Shown piece after piece: positions 6,824 through 38,191 of a stretch of 54,008 nt of DNA. Each line of letters begins with the position of its first letter. The stretch's first letter is position 1. The translations under genes were made by a program, and so were the position numbers. The notes beneath the pieces are model-generated. The model was not told the origin of the DNA. It was given only the letters and a program-made list of their open reading frames with translations, and made no database searches. The stretch comes from a virus (Duplodnaviria > Caudoviricetes). The stretch is taken from IMG/VR virus record IMGVR_UViG_3300002124_000003, positions 1 through 54,008 of that record, one strand, 5' to 3'.

Positions 6824-6832
6824 TTTGGCCTC

Positions 6833-7246
6833 CTATGCCCACACATTCGTCCAGTCGAATTCGACGTAGACGACTTTCGTCGTATCCGGGGCGGGAATGA
6901 CCAGCCCACAGACCACATTCGTGCCACCAGTGGCATCCGCCAGCGCCCCGGCGGTGACGCTCAGATACAGCAGCGCATCGCCATTGAGGGCAGAGACGGC
7001 AAAGCCATACAGCCAGCCACGTTTCATCATGGGAACCCATGCCCCGGCGGCTCCCCCTTCCAACGCTATACCGCGCGCCTGGATCGTGCCGGAGCCATTG
7101 GCATCCGCCAGCCCAAACGTCCCGGTAATGGCCTGATAAAGCACCTGCCCCGGCGTGACAGTTTCTGCCAGTTGCACGGCGAAGACCTCGTCTTTGTCAG
7201 GGTGTACGCGGCCTACCTGGGCCGCAGTGACCACAATATCGGTCAT
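6833..7246 (-). CDS. Capsid decoration/cement protein (DUF2190-like)
   Basis: AETVTPGQVLY...ARGIAL...G...LYLS.TAG pattern, between scaffold and capsid genes. Confidence 0.7.
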   Translation of the reverse strand: MTDIVVTAAQVGRVHPDKDEVFAVQLAETVTPGQVLYQAITGTFGLADANGSGTIQARGIALEGGAAGAWVPMMKRGWLYGFAVSALNGDALLYLSVTAGALADATGGTNVVCGLVIPAPDTTKVVYVEFDWTNVWA

Positions 7247-14045: not shown

Positions 14046-15635
14046 TCAATCCTCCACAGAAAACGTCATGCCGGGTTGTACGGCGCTGAAGGTCATGTCA
14101 GGCTGTGTAGCACTGAACGTCATACCGGGTTGTACGGCACTAAAGGTCATCACCAGCAGCCCAGAAATAGTGACCGGTTCGGTATCATTGGCACTCAGGG
14201 TCAGTGTGCCCAACGTCACGGCCAGCGTGCCAGAGATGTCGGCTGCGCCCGCCGCGCTTAGACTGAGACTGTCCAGACTGACCGCCGCCGCGCCGGACAC
14301 GTCTACCGTTCCGGCACTGGCAACAGTCAGGCTGCCTAAAGTAATGGCCGCGTCGCCGGTACTGCCCGAAGCGCCTGCCGCCGACAGAGTCGCATCGTCG
14401 AGCGTGACCGCCAATGCCCCGACGATGGCCGCCGTTCCGCTGCTGGCAAGCGTCAGCGCATCGAAGGTCAGATCGGCTGCGCCCGAAATATCGACTGCGC
14501 CTGCCGAGGCGACAGTCAGCGCACTTAGCGTGATAGCGCCCGCGCCTGCAATGTCCACCGTCCCCGCCGCCGCCGCATTTAGCGCGCCGAGGGTGACATT
14601 GAGATCACCGGTCAGCGCGCCGCTGTCGTTGGCTACCAGGGTCACATCGTCGAGCGTGACCGCCAGCGCGCCAGAGACATCGACTGTGCCGGCTGCGGTA
14701 GTGGTGAGTGCATCCAGTGTGACCCCGGCAGCGCCGGAAACAGCCACTGTCCCGGCAGCGGCAGTCGTCACTACGCCCAGGGTAATCGCAGCATTGCCTG
14801 CGACTTCGACCGTGCCCGCTGCGGCGCTGGTCAGCGCCTCCAGCGTAAGCGCTGCTGACCCGACTACCTCATTAGTGCCGCTGGCCGCTGAGGTCAAGGT
14901 CGCCAGAGTAACCGCTGCCGCCCCGCTTATCGCTGCGGTTCCGGCGGCGCTGGTCGTGACCGCCCCTAACGTGGGCGCGGCGTTCCCGGTTATGTCTACT
15001 GTACCGGCAGACACAGCGGTCAGCGCGCCGAGAGTAATGGCAGCCGCACCGGTAATTTCAGTATTAACTACCCCACCGCCGAAATCATTCAGGCGCGTGG
15101 TGGTGCTGGTCGAGCCGATGCCGATGTTGCCTGAGCCGGTGTAGGTGCTGCTGGTCGTGGACAGGACTTGTGTATAGCCTGAGCCGGTATTGATCAGGGC
15201 ACGCAGCGTTGTCCCGATAATCTCGATACCAACGCCGTTGCCGTTCGTGAGTTCCTGCGAACCGCTGGTCAATACGGTACTGACCGCATTGTCGAGCCGT
15301 TGAATTTCAAACGTATCTGTACCCGAGGCGGCGACTACATGAACGTCATAACCGTCCAGTGTGGCTAACGAACCGGTTTGCTGCAACCTGGCGAAAATAT
15401 ATCCGCTGCTGCCATCCGGCGGCTTGGTCGAAACGATGGCATAGGCTTCGACATCATCCGTAAAGGCGGCGGCGGACCAGAAAGCAAAGGCCGCGCCGCC
15501 AGCCACGCTATCCGGGGCCGCCAGATTGGAGGCGATACTCCAACTGCCGACCAGTGTTTCATTCCAGTTCGCGCCGAGGCTGCCGGAATTGGCGCGGTCA
15601 AAGGTGTCCAGAACGCCGGTGGTTGGGAAGGCCAC
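14046..15635 (-). CDS. Fibre-like protein: lectin-like N-domain, Ala/Gly/Thr repeat stalk, MTFS repeat tail
   Basis: DTFDRANSGSLGANW N-terminus; ~22-aa repeats (GxAAxTLxxLTxxAxGTV); C-terminal 9-aa repeats. Confidence 0.6.
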   Translation of the reverse strand: MAFPTTGVLDTFDRANSGSLGANWNETLVGSWSIASNLAAPDSVAGGAAFAFWSAAAFTDDVEAYAIVSTKPPDGSSGYIFARLQQTGSLATLDGYDVHVVAASGTDTFEIQRLDNAVSTVLTSGSQELTNGNGVGIEIIGTTLRALINTGSGYTQVLSTTSSTYTGSGNIGIGSTSTTTRLNDFGGGVVNTEITGAAAITLGALTAVSAGTVDITGNAAPTLGAVTTSAAGTAAISGAAAVTLATLTSAASGTNEVVGSAALTLEALTSAAAGTVEVAGNAAITLGVVTTAAAGTVAVSGAAGVTLDALTTTAAGTVDVSGALAVTLDDVTLVANDSGALTGDLNVTLGALNAAAAGTVDIAGAGAITLSALTVASAGAVDISGAADLTFDALTLASSGTAAIVGALAVTLDDATLSAAGASGSTGDAAITLGSLTVASAGTVDVSGAAAVSLDSLSLSAAGAADISGTLAVTLGTLTLSANDTEPVTISGLLVMTFSAVQPGMTFSATQPDMTFSAVQPGMTFSVED

Positions 15636-16397: not shown

Positions 16398-16415
16398 ACA
16401 TGTAGTCTGCCAAAG

Positions 16416-16445
16416 ATCATAGGTGACGATTGTCGAAACTGTCAA
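16416..16445 (-). promoter_or_regulatory. Putative late promoter
   Basis: TTGACA-18 bp-TATGAT. Confidence 0.7.
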
Positions 16446-16951
16446 GCGGCCTGTACATGAATCTTACTCATGCGCTGTGCCCGTTCCTTGCGCTTCAGAT
16501 AATCTTCGTGGTTAAGGATGCTGATACAGGTTTTGCAGTAGCCGCGCAAGCCGTTGGGCCGCGTCGGGTCAGGTGAAAACGCCTCTCGCCGCTGGTAATC
16601 GCCGCAGTGCGCACAGAAGACCTTGAAGGCTTTATGGCGCTTGCCAGTCGCGTCACGCTCGAAATAGTAAGGTCGGGGCAATATCCCGTTGCGACGGTCA
16701 TACACCCCGCCGCGCCGGGGGAATAGGATGACGCGCTCGACTTCGTTGATGACCGCCACCTTGACGATACCGAGTTCGCCGCTGTTGGAGCCAAAATCGC
16801 CTTTGATCGGGATTTCCCAGGGCCGGGCCGGGGAACCGTGATGGGGACTGCCGGGGGGAAGATCGGCGCGATGGTATTCCTTGCCACGCCATTCGAGGAT
16901 GATTGAGTCCGCCAAGCGTGTGCTCCTGTATGATTGTATACAATTCGACAA
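16442..16951 (-). CDS. Zn-finger protein, candidate late regulator (start probably TTG 16913)
   Basis: CAHC...CKTC; AGGAG before TTG; own TTGACC-18-TAGTGT promoter; occupies the Q-like position. Confidence 0.55.
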   Translation of the reverse strand: MSNCIQSYRSTRLADSIILEWRGKEYHRADLPPGSPHHGSPARPWEIPIKGDFGSNSGELGIVKVAVINEVERVILFPRRGGVYDRRNGILPRPYYFERDATGKRHKAFKVFCAHCGDYQRREAFSPDPTRPNGLRGYCKTCISILNHEDYLKRKERAQRMSKIHVQAA

Positions 16952-16997
16952 TCATACACTAGCACAGGCGGCGCGCGGAGGTCAAGTTGTATTTACG

Positions 16998-17342
16998 TTA
17001 GCGCCCCTGCCCTTTTCGCTCTGCCAGGGCCAACAGGAACGCCTCGCCCAGCGCAGCGGCCGCGGTGGTGGCATGGGCAATACTCACCAGACGACCATAC
17101 GCATAAAGTTCACCAAAGTAAGCATAGCCATCTATGAGCCGTGGGCCTCGGACTTGCCAGACATACCCCGCCGCCTCGATTTCGCGGGTGATGGCATCGA
17201 GCGACGTGTCCCAGTGCGGACACGGCGTATGTATGACCAGCCCCTCCGGGGTCGTTTCCCGCAGATACAGATCATCTTCAGCCTGCCACAGGGCGACCGT
17301 CTTGCCCAGCGCTTCCGCGATAAAGCGGTTCAAGTCACTCAT
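16998..17342 (-). CDS. Phage ABA-sandwich-like protein
   Basis: LNRFIAEALG...WDTSLDA...ATTAAAALGEAFL pattern. Confidence 0.5.
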   Translation of the reverse strand: MSDLNRFIAEALGKTVALWQAEDDLYLRETTPEGLVIHTPCPHWDTSLDAITREIEAAGYVWQVRGPRLIDGYAYFGELYAYGRLVSIAHATTAAAALGEAFLLALAERKGQGR

Positions 17343-17589
17343 CGGTGGCGTCCTTTGTCAGATAGGGTGCGAGGTGTTTATCGATTACATCCGCCAGATG
17401 CAGATCGTCCGACCAATCGTTATCGCCGAACTCCTCACACAGTCCGCGCAAGCTGGCAATCGTCGCCTCGCGTTCCAATCGCAGCGACGGCAGTTCATTG
17501 TCAACCCCCCGCCCTAATCCACTCAAGGCCAATTCGAGCAGCGTGGCATATACCTGTCGCTGTCCCATTAAATAAGCCAGTTCGTCCAT
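17335..17589 (-). CDS. Hypothetical phage protein
   Basis: GGAGG RBS; LRGLCEEFGDNDWSDDLHLADVIDKHL motif. Confidence 0.6.
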   Translation of the reverse strand: MDELAYLMGQRQVYATLLELALSGLGRGVDNELPSLRLEREATIASLRGLCEEFGDNDWSDDLHLADVIDKHLAPYLTKDATDE

Positions 17590-17597
17590 GTTGCCTC

Positions 17598-18098
17598 CTA
17601 CTGTACAAGCCGCCATGCGGCGTCTAAAAAGTTGCTGGAACTCTTGCCCGGCTCGCTCCTGGCTTTCGTCACCGTGAGCAGCGTGTCATCTTCCTCAGCA
17701 GGTGGCATAACCGGGGTAAAAGATACAATGTTGGTGGCTGCGGGCATGGGCTTCAACAGTGCCAACTGCGCTTCCAGAGCCGCCAGCCGCAAGCTGAGAT
17801 CGCCCTGCCCTGCTGTTGCCAACTGAGCGCGTACGAACGGGAATAGCTCCAGCAGTACATCAACCCGCCCATCGCGGAGATCCAGAAACAATCTTAGTCC
17901 ATCGCGGACGGCGCGACTATATTGCCGTTCTTTCTTCAAGTCGGCAATCCTGTCTGCTAACCAACGTTCATCGTGTTTCAGCATATCCAGCCAGAAGCGC
18001 TCAACAAAGCGCGTGCCTTTGCATCTCCTGAGTTTTGCGTCTATGCGGGCTGCACTTTGTGCAACGCGCGGGATAGATTGGAGCGCCAATGCGCACAT
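17598..18098 (-). CDS. Putative ribbon-helix-helix DNA-binding protein (start uncertain)
   Basis: Strand RFWLD followed by helices ending SRAVRDGLRL; Pro-rich linker. Confidence 0.5.
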   Translation of the reverse strand: MCALALQSIPRVAQSAARIDAKLRRCKGTRFVERFWLDMLKHDERWLADRIADLKKERQYSRAVRDGLRLFLDLRDGRVDVLLELFPFVRAQLATAGQGDLSLRLAALEAQLALLKPMPAATNIVSFTPVMPPAEEDDTLLTVTKARSEPGKSSSNFLDAAWRLVQ

Positions 18099-18191
18099 GG
18101 TACAATCCTTTTAGCTGCAGCGACAACGTTGTCGGCTTTACGCCACAGAGGCCGTAATCTCTGTGGCGTTGCTTTTATGACTGCCGTCCAT

Positions 18192-18218
18192 GATAACCCG
18201 GATGCGCCGGGCGCGCAA
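18192..18218. repeat. 27-bp direct repeat, copy 1
   Basis: GATAACCCGGATGCGCCGGGCGCGCAA, identical to 18828-18854; internal CCCGG/CCGGG hairpin. Confidence 0.95.
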
Positions 18219-18219
18219 A

Positions 18220-18462
18220 TTATTGCACGACGAGCACGTTACCATAGCTCATAATATAAGTGATCACCTCATCGAAATCGTAGCCGGGCGTCGTATGCAG
18301 CATGAAATGCTCCAGGTTCACGTCCCAAAACAAGAAACCGAATTCCCGGCAGTGCTGAGTGATCCAATCCTTTGCGTCCTGCGAATAACACCAGATCAAA
18401 AGCATACTCGAACCCGCCATGCGCTTCAGTGCAATCTCCGCTTTCGGTTGTGGTTTGCTCAT
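18220..18462 (-). CDS. Hypothetical protein
   Basis: GAGGAGG RBS, ATGA overlap. Confidence 0.7.
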   Translation of the reverse strand: MSKPQPKAEIALKRMAGSSMLLIWCYSQDAKDWITQHCREFGFLFWDVNLEHFMLHTTPGYDFDEVITYIMSYGNVLVVQ

Positions 18463-18812
18463 TCTGCCTCCTCCTCGCCGCCGCCGGGCGGGGTGTACGT
18501 GTGAACTTCCAATTCGCCATTGACGACCAGTTGCCACGCCGTCCAGACGGCAATCGCCCACGAGGACCCGGAGTGTCCCTTTATATCGATCTGCATGGCC
18601 TCGGCGGCAGCATCAATGCGCTGGTCGAAAGCACCACGCGTGCTTAATCCACCCGCCATAGCAAAACTGTGAAGCATTCCCAGTTCGTGCCCGGCAGCAG
18701 CACGAAGCTCTGCCCGATTCAACGCTGCCGCAGCGATCACCCTGGCCGTCTGCAACGTGTAGGCATCAGAGGCGATTTCTTCGGGCTGATAATATATTTT
18801 GTTAATGTCCAT
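18459..18812 (-). CDS. Hypothetical protein ending TPPGGGEEEAE
   Basis: GAGGAGG RBS; ends in the junction repeat. Confidence 0.7.
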   Translation of the reverse strand: MDINKIYYQPEEIASDAYTLQTARVIAAAALNRAELRAAAGHELGMLHSFAMAGGLSTRGAFDQRIDAAAEAMQIDIKGHSGSSWAIAVWTAWQLVVNGELEVHTYTPPGGGEEEAE

Positions 18813-18827
18813 CGCTCACGCCTCCTC

Positions 18828-18854
18828 GATAACCCGGATGCGCCGGGCGCGCAA
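18828..18854. repeat. 27-bp direct repeat, copy 2
   Basis: Identical to 18192-18218. Confidence 0.95.
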
Positions 18855-18855
18855 G

Positions 18856-19029
18856 TCAGTCGAAACGCCCGCTTTTTATGCGTTCTTTGGCGGCCCTCAC
18901 TTCGCGCTCAAATTCATCGAAGTCCGTTTCGATCTTATGGAAGCGTCGCCGCGATTCCTGATATGCGCACCAACCATAACCCAGGACCACGCCTGCCATA
19001 AACAGGCCGATCATTGCCAGAATGTCCAT
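18856..19029 (-). CDS. 57-aa membrane-anchored protein (not in ORF track)
   Basis: MDILAMIGLFMAGVVLGYGWCAYQESRRR...; strong RBS. Confidence 0.7.
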   Translation of the reverse strand: MDILAMIGLFMAGVVLGYGWCAYQESRRRFHKIETDFDEFEREVRAAKERIKSGRFD

Positions 19030-19032
19030 TGC

Positions 19033-19245
19033 TCACGCCTCCTCCTCGCCGCCGCTGCCGGGCGGGGTGTCGGCATCCACCCCTAATTCACCGCTGCCAA
19101 CCATCTCGTTAAGTTCGATCACGGCATTTTGAATTTCGACCCGAAGGGCAGTCACTCGCAATTGAGCCGCCGCCCGCCAGATGGTGTTCAGTTGACGATC
19201 AACCTCTTCCCGGTTAATGGTAATCCGATGATACACGTCCATCAC
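19033..19245 (-). CDS. Hypothetical protein ending TPPGSGGEEEA
   Basis: RBS and overlapping junction. Confidence 0.7.
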   Translation of the reverse strand: MMDVYHRITINREEVDRQLNTIWRAAAQLRVTALRVEIQNAVIELNEMVGSGELGVDADTPPGSGGEEEA

Positions 19246-19511
19246 GCCTCCTCGCCGCCGGCGGGCGCGGAATCCAGTGCATTCCGATAGGTTTCAGCCA
19301 GCCTGGATAACGCTATAGAAATAGTCGCTAGCGTTCCCCCAAGAGACACCAATTCCTCTAGAGTCTGCTGTACCTCGTCATTCACGGGCAGTTGATGCTG
19401 CCGGATCAGGTATCGAATGTGTTGAATTGCATGGGTCGCATCGGTTACATGTCCGACGCATTTCCCAAGTGCAAAAATCGCACCCAGTGCGCGTAATTGT
19501 TGGTCGCTCAT
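19242..19511 (-). CDS. Hypothetical protein ending APAGGEEA
   Basis: RBS and overlapping junction. Confidence 0.7.
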   Translation of the reverse strand: MSDQQLRALGAIFALGKCVGHVTDATHAIQHIRYLIRQHQLPVNDEVQQTLEELVSLGGTLATISIALSRLAETYRNALDSAPAGGEEA

Positions 19512-19834
19512 CAGTCCTCCTCGCCGCCGCTGCCGGGCGCGGTGTCTTTGACCCGTGCGACCATGCGGTCATGCCCCCGACGCGCTTCCTCAAGCGTGCC
19601 ATAGCGGACGACCTCCTGATCCAGGGGGCCGCCAAACACCATCGTTTCAAACCATAACGGGGAGCTATTGCCGAAGGCATGATTAAGACCAAGAAAGACC
19701 GTGCTGACTTCACAATGGTCAAGGATGGTTTTCGCCACGCGCCGATTATCGCTTTCCTCAAAGAATGCGGCCCATTCGAGCACATCCACAGTCACAACGA
19801 TCCCATCCTTCAAGATCGCATATTCGCTCATCAC
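19511..19834 (-). CDS. Conserved phage protein ending TAPGSGGEED
   Basis: VSTVFLGLNH...PLWFETMVFGG...RYGT.EEA..GH motif, familiar from phage hypothetical proteins. Confidence 0.75.
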   Translation of the reverse strand: MMSEYAILKDGIVVTVDVLEWAAFFEESDNRRVAKTILDHCEVSTVFLGLNHAFGNSSPLWFETMVFGGPLDQEVVRYGTLEEARRGHDRMVARVKDTAPGSGGEED

Positions 19835-20064
19835 GCCTCCTCATCAATATAGAACAGGTCGCCGACATCGACGCCAAAGTACCGGCAGAGCTTGACGACA
19901 GTCTCACCCTTCATATCGGCTTTACCTTGACGCAGCCACGTATACAGCGATTGGCGCGATACACCTGCTTCCTCTGCAACCTGCGTAATCGTCAGCGGCT
20001 TGCGTCTGCCGGGCTGTTTTTTTGCCATCAATTCCACGAGTCGATGTTTAAGCACTTCAGCCAT
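19831..20064 (-). CDS. XRE/Cro-family HTH regulator
   Basis: LTITQVAEEAGVSRQSLYTW...TVVKLCRYFGVDVGDLF. Confidence 0.9.
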   Translation of the reverse strand: MAEVLKHRLVELMAKKQPGRRKPLTITQVAEEAGVSRQSLYTWLRQGKADMKGETVVKLCRYFGVDVGDLFYIDEEA

Positions 20065-20081
20065 TCCTGATACCTTCCTAC

Positions 20082-20110
20082 AGTATAGCAAATGAACTCA
20101 CGCGCGTCTA
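20082..20110 (-). promoter_or_regulatory. Leftward early promoter
   Basis: TAGACG-17 bp-TATACT with extended TG. Confidence 0.75.
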
Positions 20111-20136
20111 TAAGAGAAACGTTAATTATTTACGAC

Positions 20137-20165
20137 TTGACGCACAGAGGGAATGCGCATATACT
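20137..20165 (+). promoter_or_regulatory. Rightward early promoter
   Basis: TTGACG-17 bp-TATACT. Confidence 0.8.
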
Positions 20166-20319
20166 AGATTATAGACTGGATTGTGAGGCTGTCGCAATGT
20201 GGCAGAGGTAGCATGAGAGTCTAACGCAAGACCCACAGGCCGCTGGTCACTGCCGACCAAGACAAGCCAGCGACCTGTGGCACTAAGCACCGGAGTACCT
20301 AGCAAAAGGAATTATCCTC

Positions 20320-20541
20320 GTGAAACATTACCACTGCAAGGAATGCGGTTCCGAACTCTGGCAGGATGTCCAGGAGACCGGGCCATACAGCCGGGACGCC
20401 AGCGGCCAGATCGTCGCCGGGGGCAGGCAGGTAATCCTGCATTGCACGAACGTCACGTGTACGCTCTGGTACTGCACGACCACGCCGGAGACCTACGAAG
20501 AAACGACTACCACGTTCCTGAAGGCGGCCCGCCATGCGTAA
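20320..20541 (+). CDS. Small Zn-ribbon protein
   Basis: CKEC...CTNVTC. Confidence 0.6.
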   Translation: MKHYHCKECGSELWQDVQETGPYSRDASGQIVAGGRQVILHCTNVTCTLWYCTTTPETYEETTTTFLKAARHA

Positions 20542-20716
20542 ATTCGCCTCGGCCATCCTCAAGGCGCTGGCGGTGTTCTTCTGGGCGCTGGGCGATGCCA
20601 TCTGGCAGCCGATGCTGGCGCGGGGCATGGCCGGGCCGATGATCCCGGAGCCTGGCTACAGCGAGCAAGACACGCAGCCGTATGACACCGAAGCCACCCA
20701 GACCTTGCAGTCATGA
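20534..20716 (+). CDS. Hypothetical protein
   Basis: Overlapping start; amphipathic N-terminus. Confidence 0.5.
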   Translation: MRKFASAILKALAVFFWALGDAIWQPMLARGMAGPMIPEPGYSEQDTQPYDTEATQTLQS

Positions 20717-20913
20717 AGGAATTGTTACATGACCAACTTTAGGCGAATTTTAGGCGAGGGGAGTGTCATAGGAATGTCGCGTCCCACGTCCTACATTCCC
20801 ACCTACGACACATCATACAGAAATCATACCATACTCACACTATTCTGTAACTACACGACGAACGTCAGTAGCAAGAATACCCGTTTCGAGGTAGAATTAC
20901 AAGGAGAGGAACA

Positions 20914-21123
20914 ATGAATAAGCCGGATATGATTTATACCACTGCGGGAACTGTAATTGAGTGTTACAAGGACGAGTCTGATCGGTGGCGTGCCAGTGTG
21001 AAGGGATTTAAGCAGCATGACGGTCAGGGCACATCCTCACTATTCGCAGCGCAGGACGCGTTATGGAACGTCATGAGTATTCCGGGCATGCGCATGGAAT
21101 ATGTCATGGCTTTGTCTATCTGA
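20914..21123 (+). CDS. Hypothetical protein
   Basis: GGAGAGGA RBS. Confidence 0.6.
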   Translation: MNKPDMIYTTAGTVIECYKDESDRWRASVKGFKQHDGQGTSSLFAAQDALWNVMSIPGMRMEYVMALSI

Positions 21124-21345
21124 CGCAAGCACCCCCGCCAAGCGTCACCTCGACAGCCCGACTTCTCAGGGACGACTGCCGGGTGCTCAGCAGGGCAGGG
21201 GCGGACACCACAGCACTGACGCCGGGTATCGGCGATAAACATACCAGATTGTGCTTGCGTTCACATTGCAGGCAACAAAAAACCGGCCAGGCCGCCCCTC
21301 GAAGAACGGCCCGCCGGTAACGACAAACAAGGAGAATAATAACAC

Positions 21346-22656
21346 ATGGTCGTAAATGATTTATCAGAATTCCGAAATGAACAGGTAGACATCGCCGAAT
21401 TCCTCTGGACGAAGCCGGGCCATCAGGAACCGGACGCCGCCTATGTGCTGGCGGATGTCGTCGGGGGCAAGGTGCGGATCGACATCTATGAGGAAGACCG
21501 CAAGGCCATTGTCAAGGCCGGGTACACCATTGCCAGTGATAGCGAGAGGCAGCAGTTGATCCCGGTCATTCTTGGCCCGAACCGGCGCATCGATTGCGTC
21601 ATCGGCACGAACGATGAAGAGGTCGAGGTCGAGCGCCGCAACACACGACCTTACAAACCGCTGCACGGCCAGCCCGTCGGCACGCCGCGCACGGAAGCGA
21701 CCGACGGCACGGCAGCGCTCAAGTTGGTAGTACCCGAACCAATCTTGAATGGTATGGCCTCGCTGTATTCCAAAATCGCGCAGGTCATGGGTAAGATCGG
21801 CAGTGTGCAGGAACGCGGCGTAGTCACTATGAAGGAACAAGGACGCGGTTACACATATATAACGGACGGCGATCTCTATGCGGCTGTACGTCAGGAAATG
21901 GCCGCTGCGAATCTGGCAATGCTTCCCCCACGTCTTATCGGCAAACGTGCCGAAAAGGACGGCGAATATATCGACATTGAATTCACATTGGCCTGTGGCG
22001 ATACTGGGGCCACGCTGGTCACCCCCTGGTTTGGCAGGCTGGGTAATACAGGTGATAAAGCCATCCATGCCACGATGACGATGTGTACCAAGTATTTTCT
22101 CAAGTATACCTTCCTGATTTCCACTGAAAATACAGACGACGCCGATGCCGAAAGTTCGTCCAGTGGACCTAAAACTACAGGTCAGCGCAAGGCCACCGCG
22201 CCGCGCAAGGCAGACAGCAGACCGGCGACTGCGCAGAAAGTAGAACAGGTCGACGCATCCGGCGCGCCCGCGATGGTGATTGCCAAAATCAAAACCGATA
22301 AAGGAGTACAGGCTGCCTGGCAGTCCTCCAACGAGGCTACCAACACCATTAACGCCATGTGGCGCGAAGGGGAGTTGCAGGACGACATGGACGATGCCGA
22401 AAAGGTCAAGCGGGTGATCGAACGCCTGCAATCACATCAGGTAGCCCCGCCCACAGGCGGCAAGGGTGAGGCGCGTCCCTGGAAAACGGGCGAACGCACG
22501 ACCTTCGCCGAAGCTGCGCAGGTGGACGGACTCAACGAACGCGACTGGCTGGCGGCGCTGAGCGTCGAAAAGCTGGACGAATGGCAGGGCACATTTTCGG
22601 AAGCCCGCACCGCGCTGGGGGCTTATGTCTCAGCGCAGATAGGCGGTGCGAAATGA
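21346..22656 (+). CDS. ERF-family single-strand annealing protein with N- and C-terminal extensions
   Basis: LYSKIAQVM...GYTY...DKAIHATMTMCTKYFLKYTFLIST..DDAD. Confidence 0.8.
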   Translation: MVVNDLSEFRNEQVDIAEFLWTKPGHQEPDAAYVLADVVGGKVRIDIYEEDRKAIVKAGYTIASDSERQQLIPVILGPNRRIDCVIGTNDEEVEVERRNTRPYKPLHGQPVGTPRTEATDGTAALKLVVPEPILNGMASLYSKIAQVMGKIGSVQERGVVTMKEQGRGYTYITDGDLYAAVRQEMAAANLAMLPPRLIGKRAEKDGEYIDIEFTLACGDTGATLVTPWFGRLGNTGDKAIHATMTMCTKYFLKYTFLISTENTDDADAESSSSGPKTTGQRKATAPRKADSRPATAQKVEQVDASGAPAMVIAKIKTDKGVQAAWQSSNEATNTINAMWREGELQDDMDDAEKVKRVIERLQSHQVAPPTGGKGEARPWKTGERTTFAEAAQVDGLNERDWLAALSVEKLDEWQGTFSEARTALGAYVSAQIGGAK

Positions 22657-24670: not shown

Positions 24671-24951
24671 ATATCCTACAGAAATGGTGGCGATGCAAAG
24701 TTCATCAGATCGACTTCGACGGTTGGAAGCTGTGCGAATTTGTCGATCCCGTGCCGGTGTATTCTCTGCCGTTCAATGAGATGGAAAACTCTGAGAGCCA
24801 TATCCTCAACGGCGAAATCAGCATTGCTTACGTCAACTTCGATTATCGGATTGGCCGTTGGTTTAAGGTGCGCCACCCTGACGGCTGGATACACGAAGCA
24901 GACTTGAATTACGAACGCGACCGGCATAGACGCATGATAGAGGGACGATGA
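24667..24951 (+). CDS. Hypothetical protein
   Basis: ATGA overlap. Confidence 0.55.
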   Translation: MNILQKWWRCKVHQIDFDGWKLCEFVDPVPVYSLPFNEMENSESHILNGEISIAYVNFDYRIGRWFKVRHPDGWIHEADLNYERDRHRRMIEGR

Positions 24952-25124
24952 ATGAGACCACCTGCCTGCATTGTGGACGCCCGACCGACGCGCCGCTGTG
25001 TGTGGACTGCGAGGCCCGCGCCCGCGCCACCGAAGACGATCTCGTGCTCGATACGCTGGACATCCTGTACGCCGACGTGCGGCGCACACAAAGCCACCGG
25101 GCACAGCGGCGGGGGAGGGGCTAG
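24948..25124 (+). CDS. 58-aa Zn-finger protein (not in ORF track)
   Basis: MNETTCLHCGRPTDAPLCVDCEAR...; ATGA overlap. Confidence 0.65.
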   Translation: MNETTCLHCGRPTDAPLCVDCEARARATEDDLVLDTLDILYADVRRTQSHRAQRRGRG

Positions 25125-25127
25125 ACG

Positions 25128-25530: not shown

Positions 25531-25815
25531 ATGTGCGCTGACAATAGTATACCTGTTTCCCAACCCGCACGCAATTCCCCGGAACCATTCAACCCCTGGG
25601 CGCTCGACGACCGCAGCGATCTCGAACTGCTCGAAATCATGAACGATACCCTGCAAGAGTATGGTTTCCTCGACATGCTCAATGATGCCATCGATGATGA
25701 ACCCGACCTGCATAACTACGCCGAACTCAAGGCCGGGATGCATATTCTCAACGAAGCGCTGCGACTGGCTGAGGCTCATCTTACCGCGCCCGGCAGCGGG
25801 GAGGATGTTTCATGA
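25531..25815 (+). CDS. Hypothetical protein ending TAPGSGEDVS
   Basis: GGAGGT RBS. Confidence 0.65.
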   Translation: MCADNSIPVSQPARNSPEPFNPWALDDRSDLELLEIMNDTLQEYGFLDMLNDAIDDEPDLHNYAELKAGMHILNEALRLAEAHLTAPGSGEDVS

Positions 25816-26081
25816 ACCCGCGAGAGGAACCGCAGACCAATCCGCCGTTTGCCAAAAATGAATATGTCGTGCTGATTGCGGATTTAAGGACACGCAATGG
25901 TAGTCGGGTCATTGCCCAGCGAGGCACTTTGGGTTGGATTAATAGCGATCAACCCAATCCTCAAGGTGAGTGGCAGGTCTGGTTTCATGACGTAATCCCC
26001 CGACGCTGGGTTTGGGTTCCGGGCGACCTGCTGAGCCGCCATACGACTGCCGCGTCCGGCAGTGGGGAGGCGGGGGCATGA
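25812..26081 (+). CDS. Hypothetical SH3-like protein ending ASGSGEAGA
   Basis: RBS and overlap. Confidence 0.6.
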   Translation: MNPREEPQTNPPFAKNEYVVLIADLRTRNGSRVIAQRGTLGWINSDQPNPQGEWQVWFHDVIPRRWVWVPGDLLSRHTTAASGSGEAGA

Positions 26082-26296
26082 GCGCTAAACTTGGCAAACA
26101 ACAGCGTTACCTGCTGGCGTGGCTGAATCACGAATTCTGCAACACGGATGACTGGGCGTTTCGCGCCCAGGATCGCAAGGTCTTACGTTCTCTGGAACGG
26201 CGCGGCTTAGTCGAACTCGAACCGGAACAGTGGGCATCGCCCGCCACATGGCATCTTACCGACGCCGGGCGTAAGGCGCTGGGGGAGGGGGAATGA
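26078..26296 (+). CDS. Small winged-helix protein
   Basis: VLRSLERRGLVE...WHLTDAGRKAL. Confidence 0.65.
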   Translation: MSAKLGKQQRYLLAWLNHEFCNTDDWAFRAQDRKVLRSLERRGLVELEPEQWASPATWHLTDAGRKALGEGE

Positions 26297-27192
26297 GCAA
26301 GCGTAAATCAGAATTTGTCTCGCGTTGGGGTGACAATGATTTAGATGATACCGGCTATCTTTACGTTCCAGGTTGGATTATGAGGCATTACCACAACCTG
26401 AAAAACGCGAAGGGTGAAACAGTCGGCCTATCCCCTAATGAGTTCACATTCTTAAGCCATGTCATGTGCTTCAAGTATGATGTACCCACTAGTGAGGCTA
26501 AGCCCAGTCTTGAAACAATCGCCGATAGAGTGGGACGACATGTTTCTAATATTCGCAAATGGAAAGACACGCTTGTAGAGAAAGGGTTACTCAAGGTTAC
26601 ACACTACGATGGTAAGCCCAGCGTCTACGACTTTGGCGCTATCGTTAAGCAGTGCCGCGAACTTGAATGCGAAATCACTACCCCTAGTGAAATCACTACC
26701 CCTAGTGAAATTGATAACACTACCCCTAGTGAAATTACTAGGATACCCCTAGTAAAACCACTAGGCAAAGAAGTAGAAGAAGAAGTAGAAGATAAGAGCG
26801 AGAATCTTCCGCCGCAAAATCTGACGCTTATCACAATGCAGGAGGCGGTCAAGACTAATCTCAGGCTTTATGGCTCGCGGCAACAGAACATCGCAAAATT
26901 GTTGCTTAACTTGCATTTCGGGCGGAATAAGCAATACAACATCGGCGGGACACCCGCCACCCCCGAAGAACTGACACAGTTCTGTGCGGCCTGGAAGCGC
27001 CAGAAGCCCGACCTCGACCTACCTCAAAAGATGGATACGATGTGTTCATGGTTCAACCGTTGGCGAGAGAAACAACATAAGGCCGACACGTCACAAGATG
27101 ACAAGATGCTTCGATTGCCTGATAGGGATGATCCCAACTTTGATCGTATTCAGGAAGCAGAACTTAAGCGCGTAAGCGGGATACCGGCATGA
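26293..27192 (+). CDS. Replication initiator (HTH, lambda O/DnaD-like) with internal iterons
   Basis: PSLETIADRVGRHVSNIRKWKDTLVEKGLL wHTH; EITTPS repeats. Confidence 0.8.
   Translation: MSKRKSEFVSRWGDNDLDDTGYLYVPGWIMRHYHNLKNAKGETVGLSPNEFTFLSHVMCFKYDVPTSEAKPSLETIADRVGRHVSNIRKWKDTLVEKGLLKVTHYDGKPSVYDFGAIVKQCRELECEITTPSEITTPSEIDNTTPSEITRIPLVKPLGKEVEEEVEDKSENLPPQNLTLITMQEAVKTNLRLYGSRQQNIAKLLLNLHFGRNKQYNIGGTPATPEELTQFCAAWKRQKPDLDLPQKMDTMCSWFNRWREKQHKADTSQDDKMLRLPDRDDPNFDRIQEAELKRVSGIPA
26671..26765. repeat. Putative origin iterons
   Basis: TACCCCTAGT at 26679, 26697, 26721 and 26744; the first two lie within tandem 18-mers. Confidence 0.8.
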
Positions 27193-37740: not shown

Positions 37741-38121
37741 GGGTTGTTAGTCGGGCACTGAGGCGGCCCGCGCTCCCGTCGTCTATGGTGACGAGCCATG
37801 TCCTGCAAGGTGGGGCACGGCTAACACCCCGGTAGTGCTGTTATGCCGTTAACGGGCAAGTCATGGTTTTAAGGCCAGTCCCGCGTACCAGCCTGTGGTC
37901 TGGGTGCTCCGGCAAATGCCATCTTTGCACCCGACACCGGATTTTGCTAGGTGTGCCCAACAAATCGGATGAAGCGAATATGTCCCCACCTCGGTAGGGC
38001 ATCAACCAATATTGCTAGGCGCACCATAGCTCTCACAACCTGCGGCCAGTGCTTCAGACGGGATGCCGGTAAACCGGGCCGTCAGCCTGCGCGGGGTTGC
38101 GCCGCGCCTCCTGACCGCTTG

Positions 38122-38191
38122 TCTGCCGGGCGGACTCGAACCGCCGTCTCCGGGCCGTGACCCGGCGTGCTGCCCGTTGCACCACAACCAG
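38122..38191 (-). tRNA. Degenerate tRNA-like element
   Basis: D-arm GTGC/GCAC and perfect T-arm GGCGG-TTCGAGT-CCGCC, but a 6-nt anticodon loop (TCACGG), an imperfect acceptor stem and no CCA. Confidence 0.6.

What the first reader, a model, noticed from the sequence alone, without database searches (positions are those of the whole stretch)
18192..19845. Array of unrelated small early genes joined by a shared junction repeat (C-terminal PGSGGEEEA tag)
Seen: successive minus-strand ORFs end DEEA, TAPGSGGEED, APAGGEEA, TPPGSGGEEEA and TPPGGGEEEAE. The DNA consensus is CGCCCGGC(AGC)GGCGGCGAGGAGG(AGG)CGTGA, followed by ATGGAC or ATGAGC. GAGGAGGCGTGAGCRATGGACATT occurs at both the 19029 and 18812 starts. 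The similarity extends well upstream of the RBS, so an RBS alone does not explain it. Inference: a recombination-shuffled gene-cassette array (possibly ERF-mediated), or a shared peptide tag or RNA signal. Small genes behind an HTH regulator are also typical of anti-defence operons.
Basis: partly seen in the sequence, partly recalled or inferred. Interest (0 to 1): 0.72.

Follow-up and report, generated by a model that had tools for sequence, protein, structure and literature searches.

The report
Copied gene-end module in a phage
Six unrelated small genes of an uncultured soil and groundwater phage end in the same short stretch of DNA, which carries the ribosome-binding site and stop/start overlap for the next gene and looks copied from junction to junction by recombination.

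Summary
The window is a complete 54,008-bp phage with terminal repeats. Four consecutive leftward genes (O1, O2, O3, O5) end in a near-identical 33-40 nt module: ACC-SCG-CCC-GGC-(AGC)-GGC-GGC-GAG-GAG-(GAG)-GCG-TGA, peptide T[AP]PGSGGEE. I found two more copies at gene ends in the opposite, rightward operon (25782-25815 and 26048-26081). A profile search finds exactly these six copies in the window. It finds none in 2.19 Mb from 179 related loci.

The gene bodies are unrelated. O1 belongs to a family with 12,957 cluster representatives; 0 of the 150 best have the tail, and the tail is unstructured in a confident model. All copies use the same codons, including minor ones, so the repeat was copied as DNA and did not converge as a peptide.

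The 3' half supplies GGAGG 4-8 nt before the next ATG, plus an overlapping stop/start. No RNA structure, promoter, integrase or known RNA family fits. Contigs from four public runs show no excision joints. No relative is close enough to test gene gain and loss.

Best reading (0.55): a translational-coupling junction spread by short-homology recombination, with the shared peptide as a by-product. It is a new variant of the known phage junction or boundary repeats. This scan has noted similar "tail = ribosome site" cases on other DNA.

The parts
19831..20064 (-). HTH (Cro/C1-type) regulator, first gene of the leftward operon. It ends DEEA with GAGGAGGCGTGA (junction J0, 19831-19842), which is the SD/stop half of the module only.
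   Evidence: Pfam HTH_26 E 3.6e-10 and HTH_3 E 1e-7; phrog_8; 12-mer.
19511..19831 (-). O1, 106 aa, a member of a very large unnamed family (WFETMVFG motif) plus a 9-residue appended tail APGSGGEED.
   Evidence: 12,957 representatives at E<=1e-3, and 0 of the best 150 carry the tail. 0 of 8 viral-contig relatives carry it. AF2 pLDDT 93.8, last helix at 80-97, residues 98-106 without secondary structure.
19242..19511 (-). O2, 89 aa orphan, tail SAPAGGEEA.
   Evidence: Only itself among 5.77 billion sequences.
19033..19242 (-). O3, 69 aa orphan, tail TPPGSGGEEEA. Its last 24 aa resemble the end of O5.
   Evidence: Only itself in the database. O3/O5 match of 24 aa, 62.5% identity, E 1.2e-5. 75-nt DNA repeat at 72% identity (family D3).
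18856..19029 (-). O4, 57 aa with a hydrophobic N-terminal stretch, no tail. Its start context GAGGAGGCGTGAGCAATGGACATT copies that of O5.
   Evidence: family D5, 23/24 nt.
18459..18812 (-). O5, 117 aa, tail TPPGGGEEEAE.
   Evidence: A 55%-identical homologue (P0004) ends TPPTPPGDEEA; a 92% variant (P0003) has a 9-aa deletion.
18220..18462 (-). O6, 80 aa, last gene of the array, no tail.
19511..19546 (-). Module copy J1 (end of O1 to start of O2).
   Evidence: nhmmer E 5.5e-7; 25 nt exact with J3 and 17 nt exact with R1.
19242..19274 (-). Module copy J2 (end of O2 to start of O3).
   Evidence: nhmmer E 1.2e-6.
19033..19071 (-). Module copy J3 (end of O3; O4 starts 3 nt after the stop).
   Evidence: nhmmer E 1.3e-5.
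18459..18497 (-). Module copy J5 (end of O5, ATGA overlap with O6).
   Evidence: nhmmer E 6.7e-7.
25782..25815 (+). Module copy R1 at the end of gene 25531-25815 in the rightward operon (tail TAPGSGEDVS, ATGA overlap with the next gene).
   Evidence: nhmmer E 3.3e-7; sequence.
26048..26081 (+). Module copy R2, more diverged, at the end of gene 25812-26081 (tail TAASGSGEAGA, ATGA overlap).
   Evidence: nhmmer E 7.7e-5.
18816..18827 (-). J4': GAGGAGGCGTGA plus GCGATGGAC before O5. It lies in non-coding DNA, or in a 12-codon stub that opens with TTG just after the O4 stop.
18823..18854 (-). Repeat B, copy 1, 2 nt after the O4 stop. It contains a 6-bp hairpin GCCCGG/CCGGGU and shares GCGCCCGGC with the module.
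   Evidence: family D8, 32 nt, 94%; 27 nt exact; fold; alignment.
18187..18218 (-). Repeat B, copy 2, after the O6 stop. It runs straight into ATGGAC (the 15 nt GAGGAGGCGTGAGCG are absent) and a 17-codon stub ORF. This looks like the remnant of a lost gene start.
18140..18169 (.). Strong 12-bp hairpin closing the array; probable terminator.
   Evidence: Fold z -4.35, with 0 of 200 shuffles as stable; terminator-like hit.
20082..20197 (.). Divergent promoter-like sites that head the two operons.
   Evidence: 10 of 12 hexamer matches on each strand.
21346..22656 (+). ERF-family single-strand annealing protein. It is the only recombination function found.
   Evidence: Pfam ERF E 1.7e-5; phrog_155 E 5.7e-17.

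Best explanation
A 33-40 nt gene-end module has been copied onto the 3' ends of six unrelated small genes in the two divergent operons that start at about 20.1-20.3 kb of this phage.

The 3' half is the working part. The Glu codons GAG-GAG spell the Shine-Dalgarno GGAGG 4-8 nt before the next ATG. The TGA overlaps that ATG or lies within 3 nt of it. A ribosome finishing one gene can therefore restart on the next (translational coupling).

The 5' half (CGCCCGGCAGCGGCGGC, peptide [AP]PGSGG) is most likely a passenger. It encodes a disordered Pro/Gly/Ser spacer that travelled along when junctions were duplicated, or homogenised, by short-homology recombination or gene conversion. The phage's ERF annealing protein plausibly catalysed this. 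On this reading the shared C-terminal peptide is a by-product and has no function as a tag.

Shown: the repeat, its excess over chance, its DNA-level identity, its absence from the O1 family, its disorder in O1, and the SD/stop/start geometry.

Inferred: the coupling itself, the recombinational spread, and the role of ERF.
For: **Inventory.** There are six copies and no more. They score nhmmer E 3e-7 to 8e-5 and the next hit is at E 4.7. All six lie at gene ends, in the reading frame that supplies the stop, and in the direction of transcription on both strands.

**Codons.** The same codons are used in every copy although some are minor. CCC is 0.26 of Pro codons and GAG is 0.41 of Glu codons. 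From those frequencies, my arithmetic gives about 3.5e-4 for three further copies re-using CCC-GGC-GGC by chance.

**Gene bodies.** They are unrelated.

**O1 tail.** It is an add-on. It is absent from 0 of 150 family representatives and 0 of 8 viral relatives, and the model gives it no secondary structure and a lower pLDDT (62).

**Paralogous versus orthologous tails.** The copies inside this genome are nearly identical, with 25 and 19 nt exact. The orthologous tail in the 55%-identical O5 homologue has drifted to TPPTPPGDEEA. That is the pattern expected from intragenomic copying or conversion.

**Mosaic traces.**
- O3 shares only its last 24 aa (75 nt) with O5.
- O4 shares only its SD and first three codons with O5.
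- Repeat B occurs twice, once with the SD piece deleted and followed by a stub ORF.

**Recombination plausibility.** The exact identities of 25-27 nt match the 23-27 bp minimal pairing segment quoted for Red-beta. ERF of phage D3 recombined diverged DNA as well as Red did (PMC3945230, passages read).

**Coupling precedent.** ATGA and TGATG overlaps were strictly coupled in 13 of 14 tested gene pairs (PMC6728339, abstract).
Against: - No recombinant or excision joint between copies appears in the contigs of 4 public runs. Contigs identical to the window span J5, J3, J2 and B. Contigs do hide rare variants.
- No relative is close enough to show that gene gains and losses break at the repeats. 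The nearest phage has TerL 63% identical, shares only six genes by tblastn, and has no copy of the module.
- Direct repeats of 25 nt in a phage with an annealing protein should be unstable. Yet the array is found unchanged in runs of many studies. That could mean selection keeps each gene, or that the repeat itself is functional.
- The passenger status of the 5' half rests on 3 synonymous against 7 non-synonymous differences, which I counted by eye on the alignment. These are very small numbers.
- Translational coupling was not measured.
Confidence: 0.55

Rival explanations
1. The whole module is a cis-acting regulatory site, as proposed for the start-associated sequences (SAS/ESAS) of Cluster K mycobacteriophages or the stoperators of Cluster A phages. 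A phage or host protein or RNA would bind it on the mRNA or the DNA to co-regulate a set of small early genes.
For: - The element is asymmetric and always oriented with transcription, just upstream of start codons, in the non-structural part of the genome and in both operons.
- Conservation reaches 20 nt or more beyond what pairing with 16S rRNA can explain.
- SAS share these properties, and their function is also unknown (PMC3203893, passages read).
- The array is stable despite 25-nt direct repeats.
Against: - There are only six copies, one of them decayed (R2) with both synonymous and non-synonymous changes.
- No copy lies in the divergent promoter region. That region has its own unrelated 14-nt inverted repeat.
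- There is no conserved RNA fold and there are 0 compensatory pairs.
- No copy scores E<1 in 179 related loci totalling 2.19 Mb.
- The orthologous tail of the O5 homologue has drifted.
Confidence: 0.2
2. The array is an actively shuffling cassette system. The junction repeats would be the sites at which genes are currently excised, inserted and re-ordered, working like an integron but without an integrase and driven by ERF.
For: - Direct repeats of 25-27 nt flank single genes.
- An ERF gene lies 1.3 kb away.
- There is a stub ORF, and the SD is deleted at repeat B2.
- The slot is variable in the nearest relative.
- PeSL repeats of T4-type phages do mediate such exchanges and form mini-circles (PMC2839356, abstract).
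Against: - No joints appear at the repeats in 4 runs.
- Every array protein forms a single-member cluster and is seen on 14-22 contigs.
- No circular or deleted form was observed.
- No relative carries the repeat.
Confidence: 0.12
3. The shared peptide T[AP]PGSGGEE is a functional C-terminal tag, for example a stability, degradation or docking signal, selected on six early proteins.
For: - All six copies keep the same reading frame and a similar peptide.
- The tail is exposed and disordered in the O1 model.
- A TPP...G.EEA tail persists in the 55%-identical O5 homologue.
Against: - The frame is forced, because the module must supply the stop codon.
- Codons are identical where peptide selection alone would allow synonymous variation.
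- The differences that do exist are mostly non-synonymous, about 7 against 3 (my count).
- The SD/stop part recurs in a non-coding context (J4') and behind a different tail on the HTH protein.
- 0 of 150 O1-family members need the tail.
Confidence: 0.08
4. The genes are old tandem paralogues that diverged beyond recognition except for a constrained end.
For: - Two parallel units (O3-O4-B and O5-O6-B) are spaced 574-636 nt apart.
- O3 and O5 share 24 C-terminal residues.
Against: - O1 belongs to a large independent family that lacks the tail.
- Bodies show no similarity, with best E 0.19 after trimming.
- Copies also occur in the other operon on the other strand.
- Junction DNA more than 90% identical beside unalignable bodies is not what uniform divergence gives.
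Confidence: 0.05

Closest known systems
Translational coupling at overlapping co-directional gene pairs (ATGA / TGATG) with an intragenic Shine-Dalgarno motif (Huber et al. 2019, PMC6728339; abstract read)
   Same: Co-directional genes, 1- or 4-nt stop/start overlaps (or a 3-nt gap), and GGAGG inside the last codons of the upstream gene. GAG-GAG-Gxx necessarily encodes Glu-Glu-[Gly/Ala/Asp/Glu/Val].
   Different: Ordinary coupling constrains about 5-8 nt. Here 17-25 nt further upstream are identical between unrelated genes and between two operons. Coupling was not measured here.
Start-associated sequences (SAS) and extended SAS of Cluster K mycobacteriophages (Pope et al. 2011, PMC3203893; passages read)
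   Same: An asymmetric repeat containing an SD core, a few nt upstream of start codons, in one orientation relative to transcription. It is confined to non-structural genes of different families, sometimes includes the upstream stop codon, and has unknown function.
   Different: - The consensus differs. The 13-mer GGGATAGGAGCCC has one 2-mismatch hit in the window, no more than in shuffles.
- There are 6 copies here, against 11-19 per genome for SAS.
- This module lies inside coding sequence and adds a shared peptide.
- It is not found in relatives, whereas SAS are conserved across three subclusters.
- There is no 17-bp inverted-repeat extension.
Short conserved boundary (linker) sequences proposed to mediate phage mosaicism (as summarised in PMC3029335; passages read)
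   Same: Short identical sequences at gene boundaries that could let general or phage recombinases exchange the genes between them. PMC3029335 infers one such event, at ~50-bp repeats, in Cluster I phages.
   Different: That proposal concerns exchange between genomes. Here the copies are seen inside one genome, and no exchange event has been observed.
PeSL regulatory cassettes of T4-type phages (Arbiol et al. 2010, PMC2839356; abstract read)
   Same: Repeated short elements between small non-essential ORFan genes in plastic regions. Recombination between them reshuffles genes.
   Different: A PeSL is an early promoter plus a stem-loop terminator lying between genes. This module has no promoter-like site and no stable stem-loop, and it lies within the coding sequence.
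Integron gene-cassette arrays (recalled knowledge)
   Same: A row of unrelated small genes, each with a similar 3' element, behind a common promoter.
   Different: No integrase or other site-specific recombinase was found. There is no attC-like imperfect hairpin. The repeats are in frame and translated.

Membership tests
Translationally coupled overlapping gene pairs | Co-directional genes with a stop/start overlap (ATGA, TGATG) or a gap of a few nt | tested here: met
   GTGATG at HTH/O1, O1/O2 and O2/O3. ATGA at O5/O6 and at both rightward copies. A 3-nt gap at O3/O4.
Translationally coupled overlapping gene pairs | SD motif inside the 3' end of the upstream gene at working distance from the start | tested here: met
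   GGAGG lies 4-8 nt before the ATG at all junctions.
Translationally coupled overlapping gene pairs | Downstream translation depends on upstream translation | not testable with these tools
   Needs reporter assays; no RNA or ribosome-profiling data are available.
SAS / ESAS (Cluster K mycobacteriophages) | 13-bp consensus GGGATAGGAGCCC | tested here: not met
   One hit with 2 mismatches, at 6827-6839. 72 of 100 shuffles do as well.
SAS / ESAS (Cluster K mycobacteriophages) | Asymmetric repeat 3-7 bp upstream of starts, in one orientation, in non-structural genes of different families | tested here: met
   Six copies, all oriented with transcription, 4-8 nt from the starts, in small genes beside the divergent promoters.
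SAS / ESAS (Cluster K mycobacteriophages) | Conserved across related phages | tested here: not met
   No hit at E<1 in 179 related loci, 2.19 Mb. However, the closest relative has TerL only 63% identical.
PeSL cassettes (T4-type phages) | Sigma-70-like early promoter plus stem-loop terminator | tested here: not met
   No promoter-like site in the array. Junction folds have z between -0.19 and +0.91. The consensus structure is 7 pairs at -6.9 kcal/mol with 0 compensatory changes.
Integron cassette array | IntI-type tyrosine recombinase next to the array | tested here: not met
   No integrase or recombinase family apart from ERF was found. Scans: PHROGs, 14 proteins at E<=0.01 and 45 ORFs at E<=1e-5; Pfam, 14 and 11 proteins at E<=0.01 and 36 ORFs at E<=1e-4.
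Integron cassette array | attC sites (imperfect inverted repeats folding as hairpins) at cassette ends | tested here: not met
   No stable or conserved hairpin in the module. Repeat B has only a 6-bp stem.
Stoperators (Cluster A mycobacteriophages) | Repressor-binding asymmetric sites that also occur at the early promoter or operator | tested here: inconclusive
   No copy of the module lies at 20065-20320. That region has an unrelated 14-nt inverted repeat. Binding cannot be tested here.

The most novel reading that the evidence does not exclude
The module is the docking sequence of an integrase-free gene-capture system. ERF-catalysed annealing at junction repeats of about 25 nt would let the phage gain, lose and re-order ORFan genes while plugging each newcomer, in frame, into a translationally coupled operon. 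That would be a working example of the long-postulated 'boundary/linker sequences' of phage modular evolution, with the shared disordered tail as its visible scar.
Probability: 0.15. Interest if true: 0.75.

Novelty: new variant of a known kind. Interest (0 to 1): 0.45.

Why it matters
Short conserved boundary sequences were proposed decades ago as the places where phage genes are swapped. [quoted passage not shown]

This phage offers a compact case. One identifiable 33-40 nt module sits on six unrelated genes in two operons, next to an annealing-protein gene, with internal traces of partial copying and deletion. If recombination at the module can be shown, it would explain how ORFan genes are slotted into expressed, coupled operons without needing their own signals.

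It is also a caution for annotation and for motif hunting. A shared C-terminal 'tag' on unrelated small proteins can be a by-product of junction DNA.

Tried and rejected
**Relatives.**
- No DNA match for 17500-21000 in 50,697 phage records.
- An exact 22-mer scan of viral contigs gave 3 hits. All lie inside the same unrelated high-GC gene and are chance matches.
- O5, alone or as an alignment, found no relatives in viral contigs or genome contigs.
- gpX found only the one known relative.
- TerL relatives in metagenomes are at most 47% identical and in genomes at most 45%. That is too distant to map gene gain and loss.
- The R1 gene has no relative in viral contigs. The single hit for the R2 gene is a pattern match inside a large unrelated protein and was discarded.

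**Function of the ORFs.**
- Pfam and PHROGs give nothing for O1-O6 or for the rightward small genes.
- The Atlas search for O5 scored 0.76, which is a lead only and named no family.
- The O1 model has no PDB fold match at E<=0.001.

**RNA.**
- No Rfam family reaches its gathering score in the window.
- There is no significant fold at the junctions.

**Reads.**
- No RNA holder is listed among the 21 runs.
- Loose ends at 19065 (two runs) and at 19517 continue into very GC-rich unlike sequence. I read these as short matches from other organisms to the GC-rich repeat, not as joints.
- Parts of the stretch without contig cover in three low-depth runs say nothing.

**Alternative decoding.** O3/O4 and the J4'/O5 junction have TGA in frame with the next ATG, but the other junctions do not. 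Long ORFs use all three stop codons: TGA 20, TAG 11, TAA 9. I did not pursue recoding or frameshift fusion.

**Possible seventh copy.** A weak look-alike at 25096-25127 has 3 mismatches and reads in another frame of the called gene. It falls below the profile threshold and was not counted.

**Tight-junction survey.** My heuristic listed 33 tight junctions and shows diverse tails elsewhere. Its composition filters dropped J1, J2, R1 and R2, so it gives no clean k of n.
Full report
**What the window is.** The window is a complete IMG/VR virus record of 54,008 bp with direct terminal repeats. Two operons diverge from promoter-like sites at about 20.08-20.20 kb.

The leftward operon starts with a Cro/C1-type HTH gene at 20064-19831 (Pfam HTH_26, E 3.6e-10). 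It runs through six small ORFs and a strong hairpin at 18140-18169 (fold z -4.35). It then continues to gpX, an HNH/Lar-like gene, the large terminase (12933-11383), the scaffold and the major head protein.

The rightward operon holds an ERF annealing protein at 21346-22656 (phrog_155, E 5.7e-17), about a dozen small ORFs, an HTH_36 protein, a primase-helicase and a DNA methyltransferase.

Twenty of the 21 listed public soil and groundwater runs, from 13 studies, hold the stretch or part of it. Six of them may be its own source.

**Checking the observation.** All ten ORFs I use, with these exact starts and stops, also exist as independently predicted proteins on 14-22 public contigs each.

The repeat is not chance:
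- GGCGGCGAGGAGG has four exact copies, all in the array. With up to 2 mismatches there are 11 matches against a mean of 3.24, and 0 of 100 shuffles reach 11.
- GAGGAGGCGTGA has four copies against 0.29 expected, and 0 of 100 shuffles reach 4.
- SCGCCCGGC has 12 copies against 4.23 expected, and five of the 12 lie in the 1.4-kb array.

Exact shared strings reach 25 nt (J1/J3), 19 nt (J3/J5) and 14 nt (several pairs). The O4 and O5 start contexts agree at 23 of 24 nt.

- The module is not confined to the array. A mismatch scan and then a profile built from the copies find two more on the + strand, at the ends of genes 25531-25815 (ACCGCGCCCGGCAGCGGGGAGGATGTTTCATGA, tail TAPGSGEDVS) and 25812-26081 (tail TAASGSGEAGA). 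Both have ATGA overlaps with the next gene. R1 shares 17 exact nt with J1.
- The profile gives six hits at E 3e-7 to 8e-5, and the next hit is at E 4.7. These six sequences built the model, so the gap below them is the informative part.
- A second repeat, B, has 27 nt exact and a 6-bp hairpin. It follows the stops of O4 and O6. B shares GCGCCCGGC with the module.
- After O4, B is followed by GAGGAGGCGTGAGCG-ATGGAC, the start of O5. After O6 the same B runs directly into ATGGAC and a 17-codon stub before the terminator hairpin. That looks like the remnant of a lost gene start.

**The genes are unrelated and the tail is an add-on.** All-against-all BLASTP of 11 neighbouring proteins finds only the tails: O1/O3 over 11 aa (E 8.7e-4) and O3/O5 over 24 aa (E 1.2e-5). 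With the last 12 residues trimmed the best E is 0.19.

- O2 and O3 have no relatives at all among 5.77 billion sequences.
- O1 belongs to a very large unnamed family, with 12,957 cluster representatives at E<=1e-3.
- None of the best 150 representatives has a G[S/G/A]GGE-type tail in its last 20 residues. None of 8 relatives in viral contigs has it.
- A confident model of O1 (pLDDT 93.8) ends its fold with a helix at 80-97. Residues 98-106 have no secondary structure, and the last block has pLDDT 62.
- O5 has a 55%-identical homologue that ends TPPTPPGDEEA. A related tail is therefore old in that family, but it has drifted there.

**DNA copy or peptide convergence.** Every copy uses the same codons. 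CCC is used for Pro although it makes up 0.26 of Pro codons in 40 long ORFs. GAG is used for Glu (0.41), GGC for Gly (0.52), AGC for Ser (0.37) and ACC for Thr (0.44).

The GAG codons are explained by the SD. For the rest, three further copies re-using CCC-GGC-GGC has a chance of about 3.5e-4 (my arithmetic).

On the alignment I count about 3 synonymous and 7 non-synonymous differences among the copies. That is roughly the neutral ratio, though the numbers are small. The copies therefore share descent as DNA, and I see no purifying selection on the peptide.

Copies inside the genome are more alike than the orthologous O5 tail in the relative. This points to intragenomic copying or gene conversion.

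**What the module does.** Its 3' half places GGAGG 4-8 nt before the next ATG and supplies a TGA that overlaps or abuts that ATG. This is the standard geometry of translational coupling, and 13 of 14 tested pairs with such overlaps were strictly coupled (PMC6728339, abstract).

The 12-mer GAGGAGGCGTGA also recurs without the 5' half: behind the HTH gene, and in non-coding DNA before O5. The 3' half is therefore the part kept for its own sake.

For the 5' half I find no function:
- Junction folds are no more stable than shuffles, with z between -0.19 and +0.91.
- The six-sequence consensus has 7 pairs, -6.9 kcal/mol and no compensatory change.
- There is no promoter-like site and no Rfam family.
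- No copy lies in the promoter region, which has its own unrelated 14-nt inverted repeat.

**Tests of the cassette idea.**
- Contigs of four runs (X9, X10, X14, X18) laid on 16400-21400 are identical to the window across J5, B, J3 and J2. They show no joint between repeats. The three joints seen lie at 16995-17629, outside the array, and belong to a related strain in X9. Contigs drop rare variants, so this does not exclude low-frequency events.
- The nearest phage, G001, is 50,855 bp with TerL 63% identical. It shares only TerL, gpX, the HTH gene, ERF, the HNH-like gene and one more with the window by tblastn at E<=1e-5; a seventh row, 28% identical over 153 of the 529 residues of window ORF 14046-15635 at E 6.5e-6, just under that cut-off, I did not count. 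It has a different gene set between the HTH gene and gpX, and no copy of the module.
- The profile finds nothing at E<1 in 179 related loci totalling 2,185,954 nt.
- At the time, a 12-mer cluster scan over 867 kb found dispersed junction repeats only in the window. The other hits I take, from their spacing alone, to be tandem or iteron-like.
- No integrase or other site-specific recombinase was found.

**Conclusion.** The best-supported reading is a translational-coupling junction that was copied, together with about 20 nt of upstream coding sequence, onto unrelated genes by short-homology recombination or conversion.

The exact identities of 25-27 nt are at the 23-27 bp minimal pairing length quoted for Red-beta. 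An ERF protein was shown to recombine short diverged DNA as efficiently as Red (PMC3945230, passages). The role of this phage's ERF is an inference.

The closest known phenomena are SAS/ESAS of Cluster K mycobacteriophages (PMC3203893), PeSL cassettes (PMC2839356, abstract) and the proposed boundary sequences (PMC3029335). The module is a member of none of them. Its sequence, copy number and conservation differ, and it lies in frame within coding sequence.

Earlier notes of this scan describe "protein tail = ribosome site" junctions on other DNA. In two of those notes the genes belong to one family or are similar (the third says nothing on this), whereas here they do not.

I rate the finding as a real and tidy new variant of a known kind. 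Its mechanism is only partly shown.

Noticed in passing
window 26676-26737 (+), inside gene 26293-27192: Three copies of CACTACCCCTAGTGAA spaced 18-24 nt apart, inside the HTH_36 gene just upstream of the primase-helicase. These are probably origin iterons within a replication-initiator gene.
   Followed up: no
window 20233-20280: A 14-nt inverted repeat (CCACAGGCCGCTGG / CCAGCGACCTGTGG, 93% complementary, 20-nt spacer) between the divergent operons. It is a candidate operator or bidirectional terminator and is unrelated to the junction module.
   Followed up: no
window 16995-17629: Run X9 holds a second, related strain that is diverged at 16532-17094. One contig replaces 16996-17003 with 367 other letters, and one skips 17214-17628 (ORF 17335-17616 and its flanks). 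This is gene-content variation just outside the array, and it is not at the junction repeats.
   Followed up: partly
window 18459-18812 (O5): A public variant (P0003, on a 7,828-nt contig) is identical to O5 except for a 9-residue deletion, MLHSFAMAG.
   Followed up: partly
window 19511-19831 (O1): O1 belongs to a family with 12,957 cluster representatives that has no Pfam or PHROG model. It folds confidently (pLDDT 93.8) and has no PDB fold match at E<=0.001. This is a widespread unnamed small phage protein family.
   Followed up: partly
window 25096-25127 (+): A degenerate look-alike of the module (ACCGGGCACAGCGGCGGGGGAGGGGCTAG) at the end of gene 24948-25124. In the called frame it reads AQRRGRG, while another frame reads PPGTAAGEG. 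It is below the profile threshold.
   Followed up: no
window 38121-38191 (-): ARAGORN calls a tRNA-like gene with an undetermined, two-letter anticodon. Nothing in Rfam reaches its gathering score there.
   Followed up: no
window 13184, 14610, 15018 (+ coordinates): The 12-mer GGTCAGCGCGCC occurs three times within 1.9 kb, in the region upstream of the terminase.
   Followed up: no
loci L103, L104, L107, L108: Four of the eight best TerL relatives in genome contigs lie in Chloroflexota or Anaerolineae assemblies, one inside the 3.4-Mb Anaerolinea thermolimosa scaffold. At 35-41% identity this is only a weak hint at the host group.
   Followed up: no
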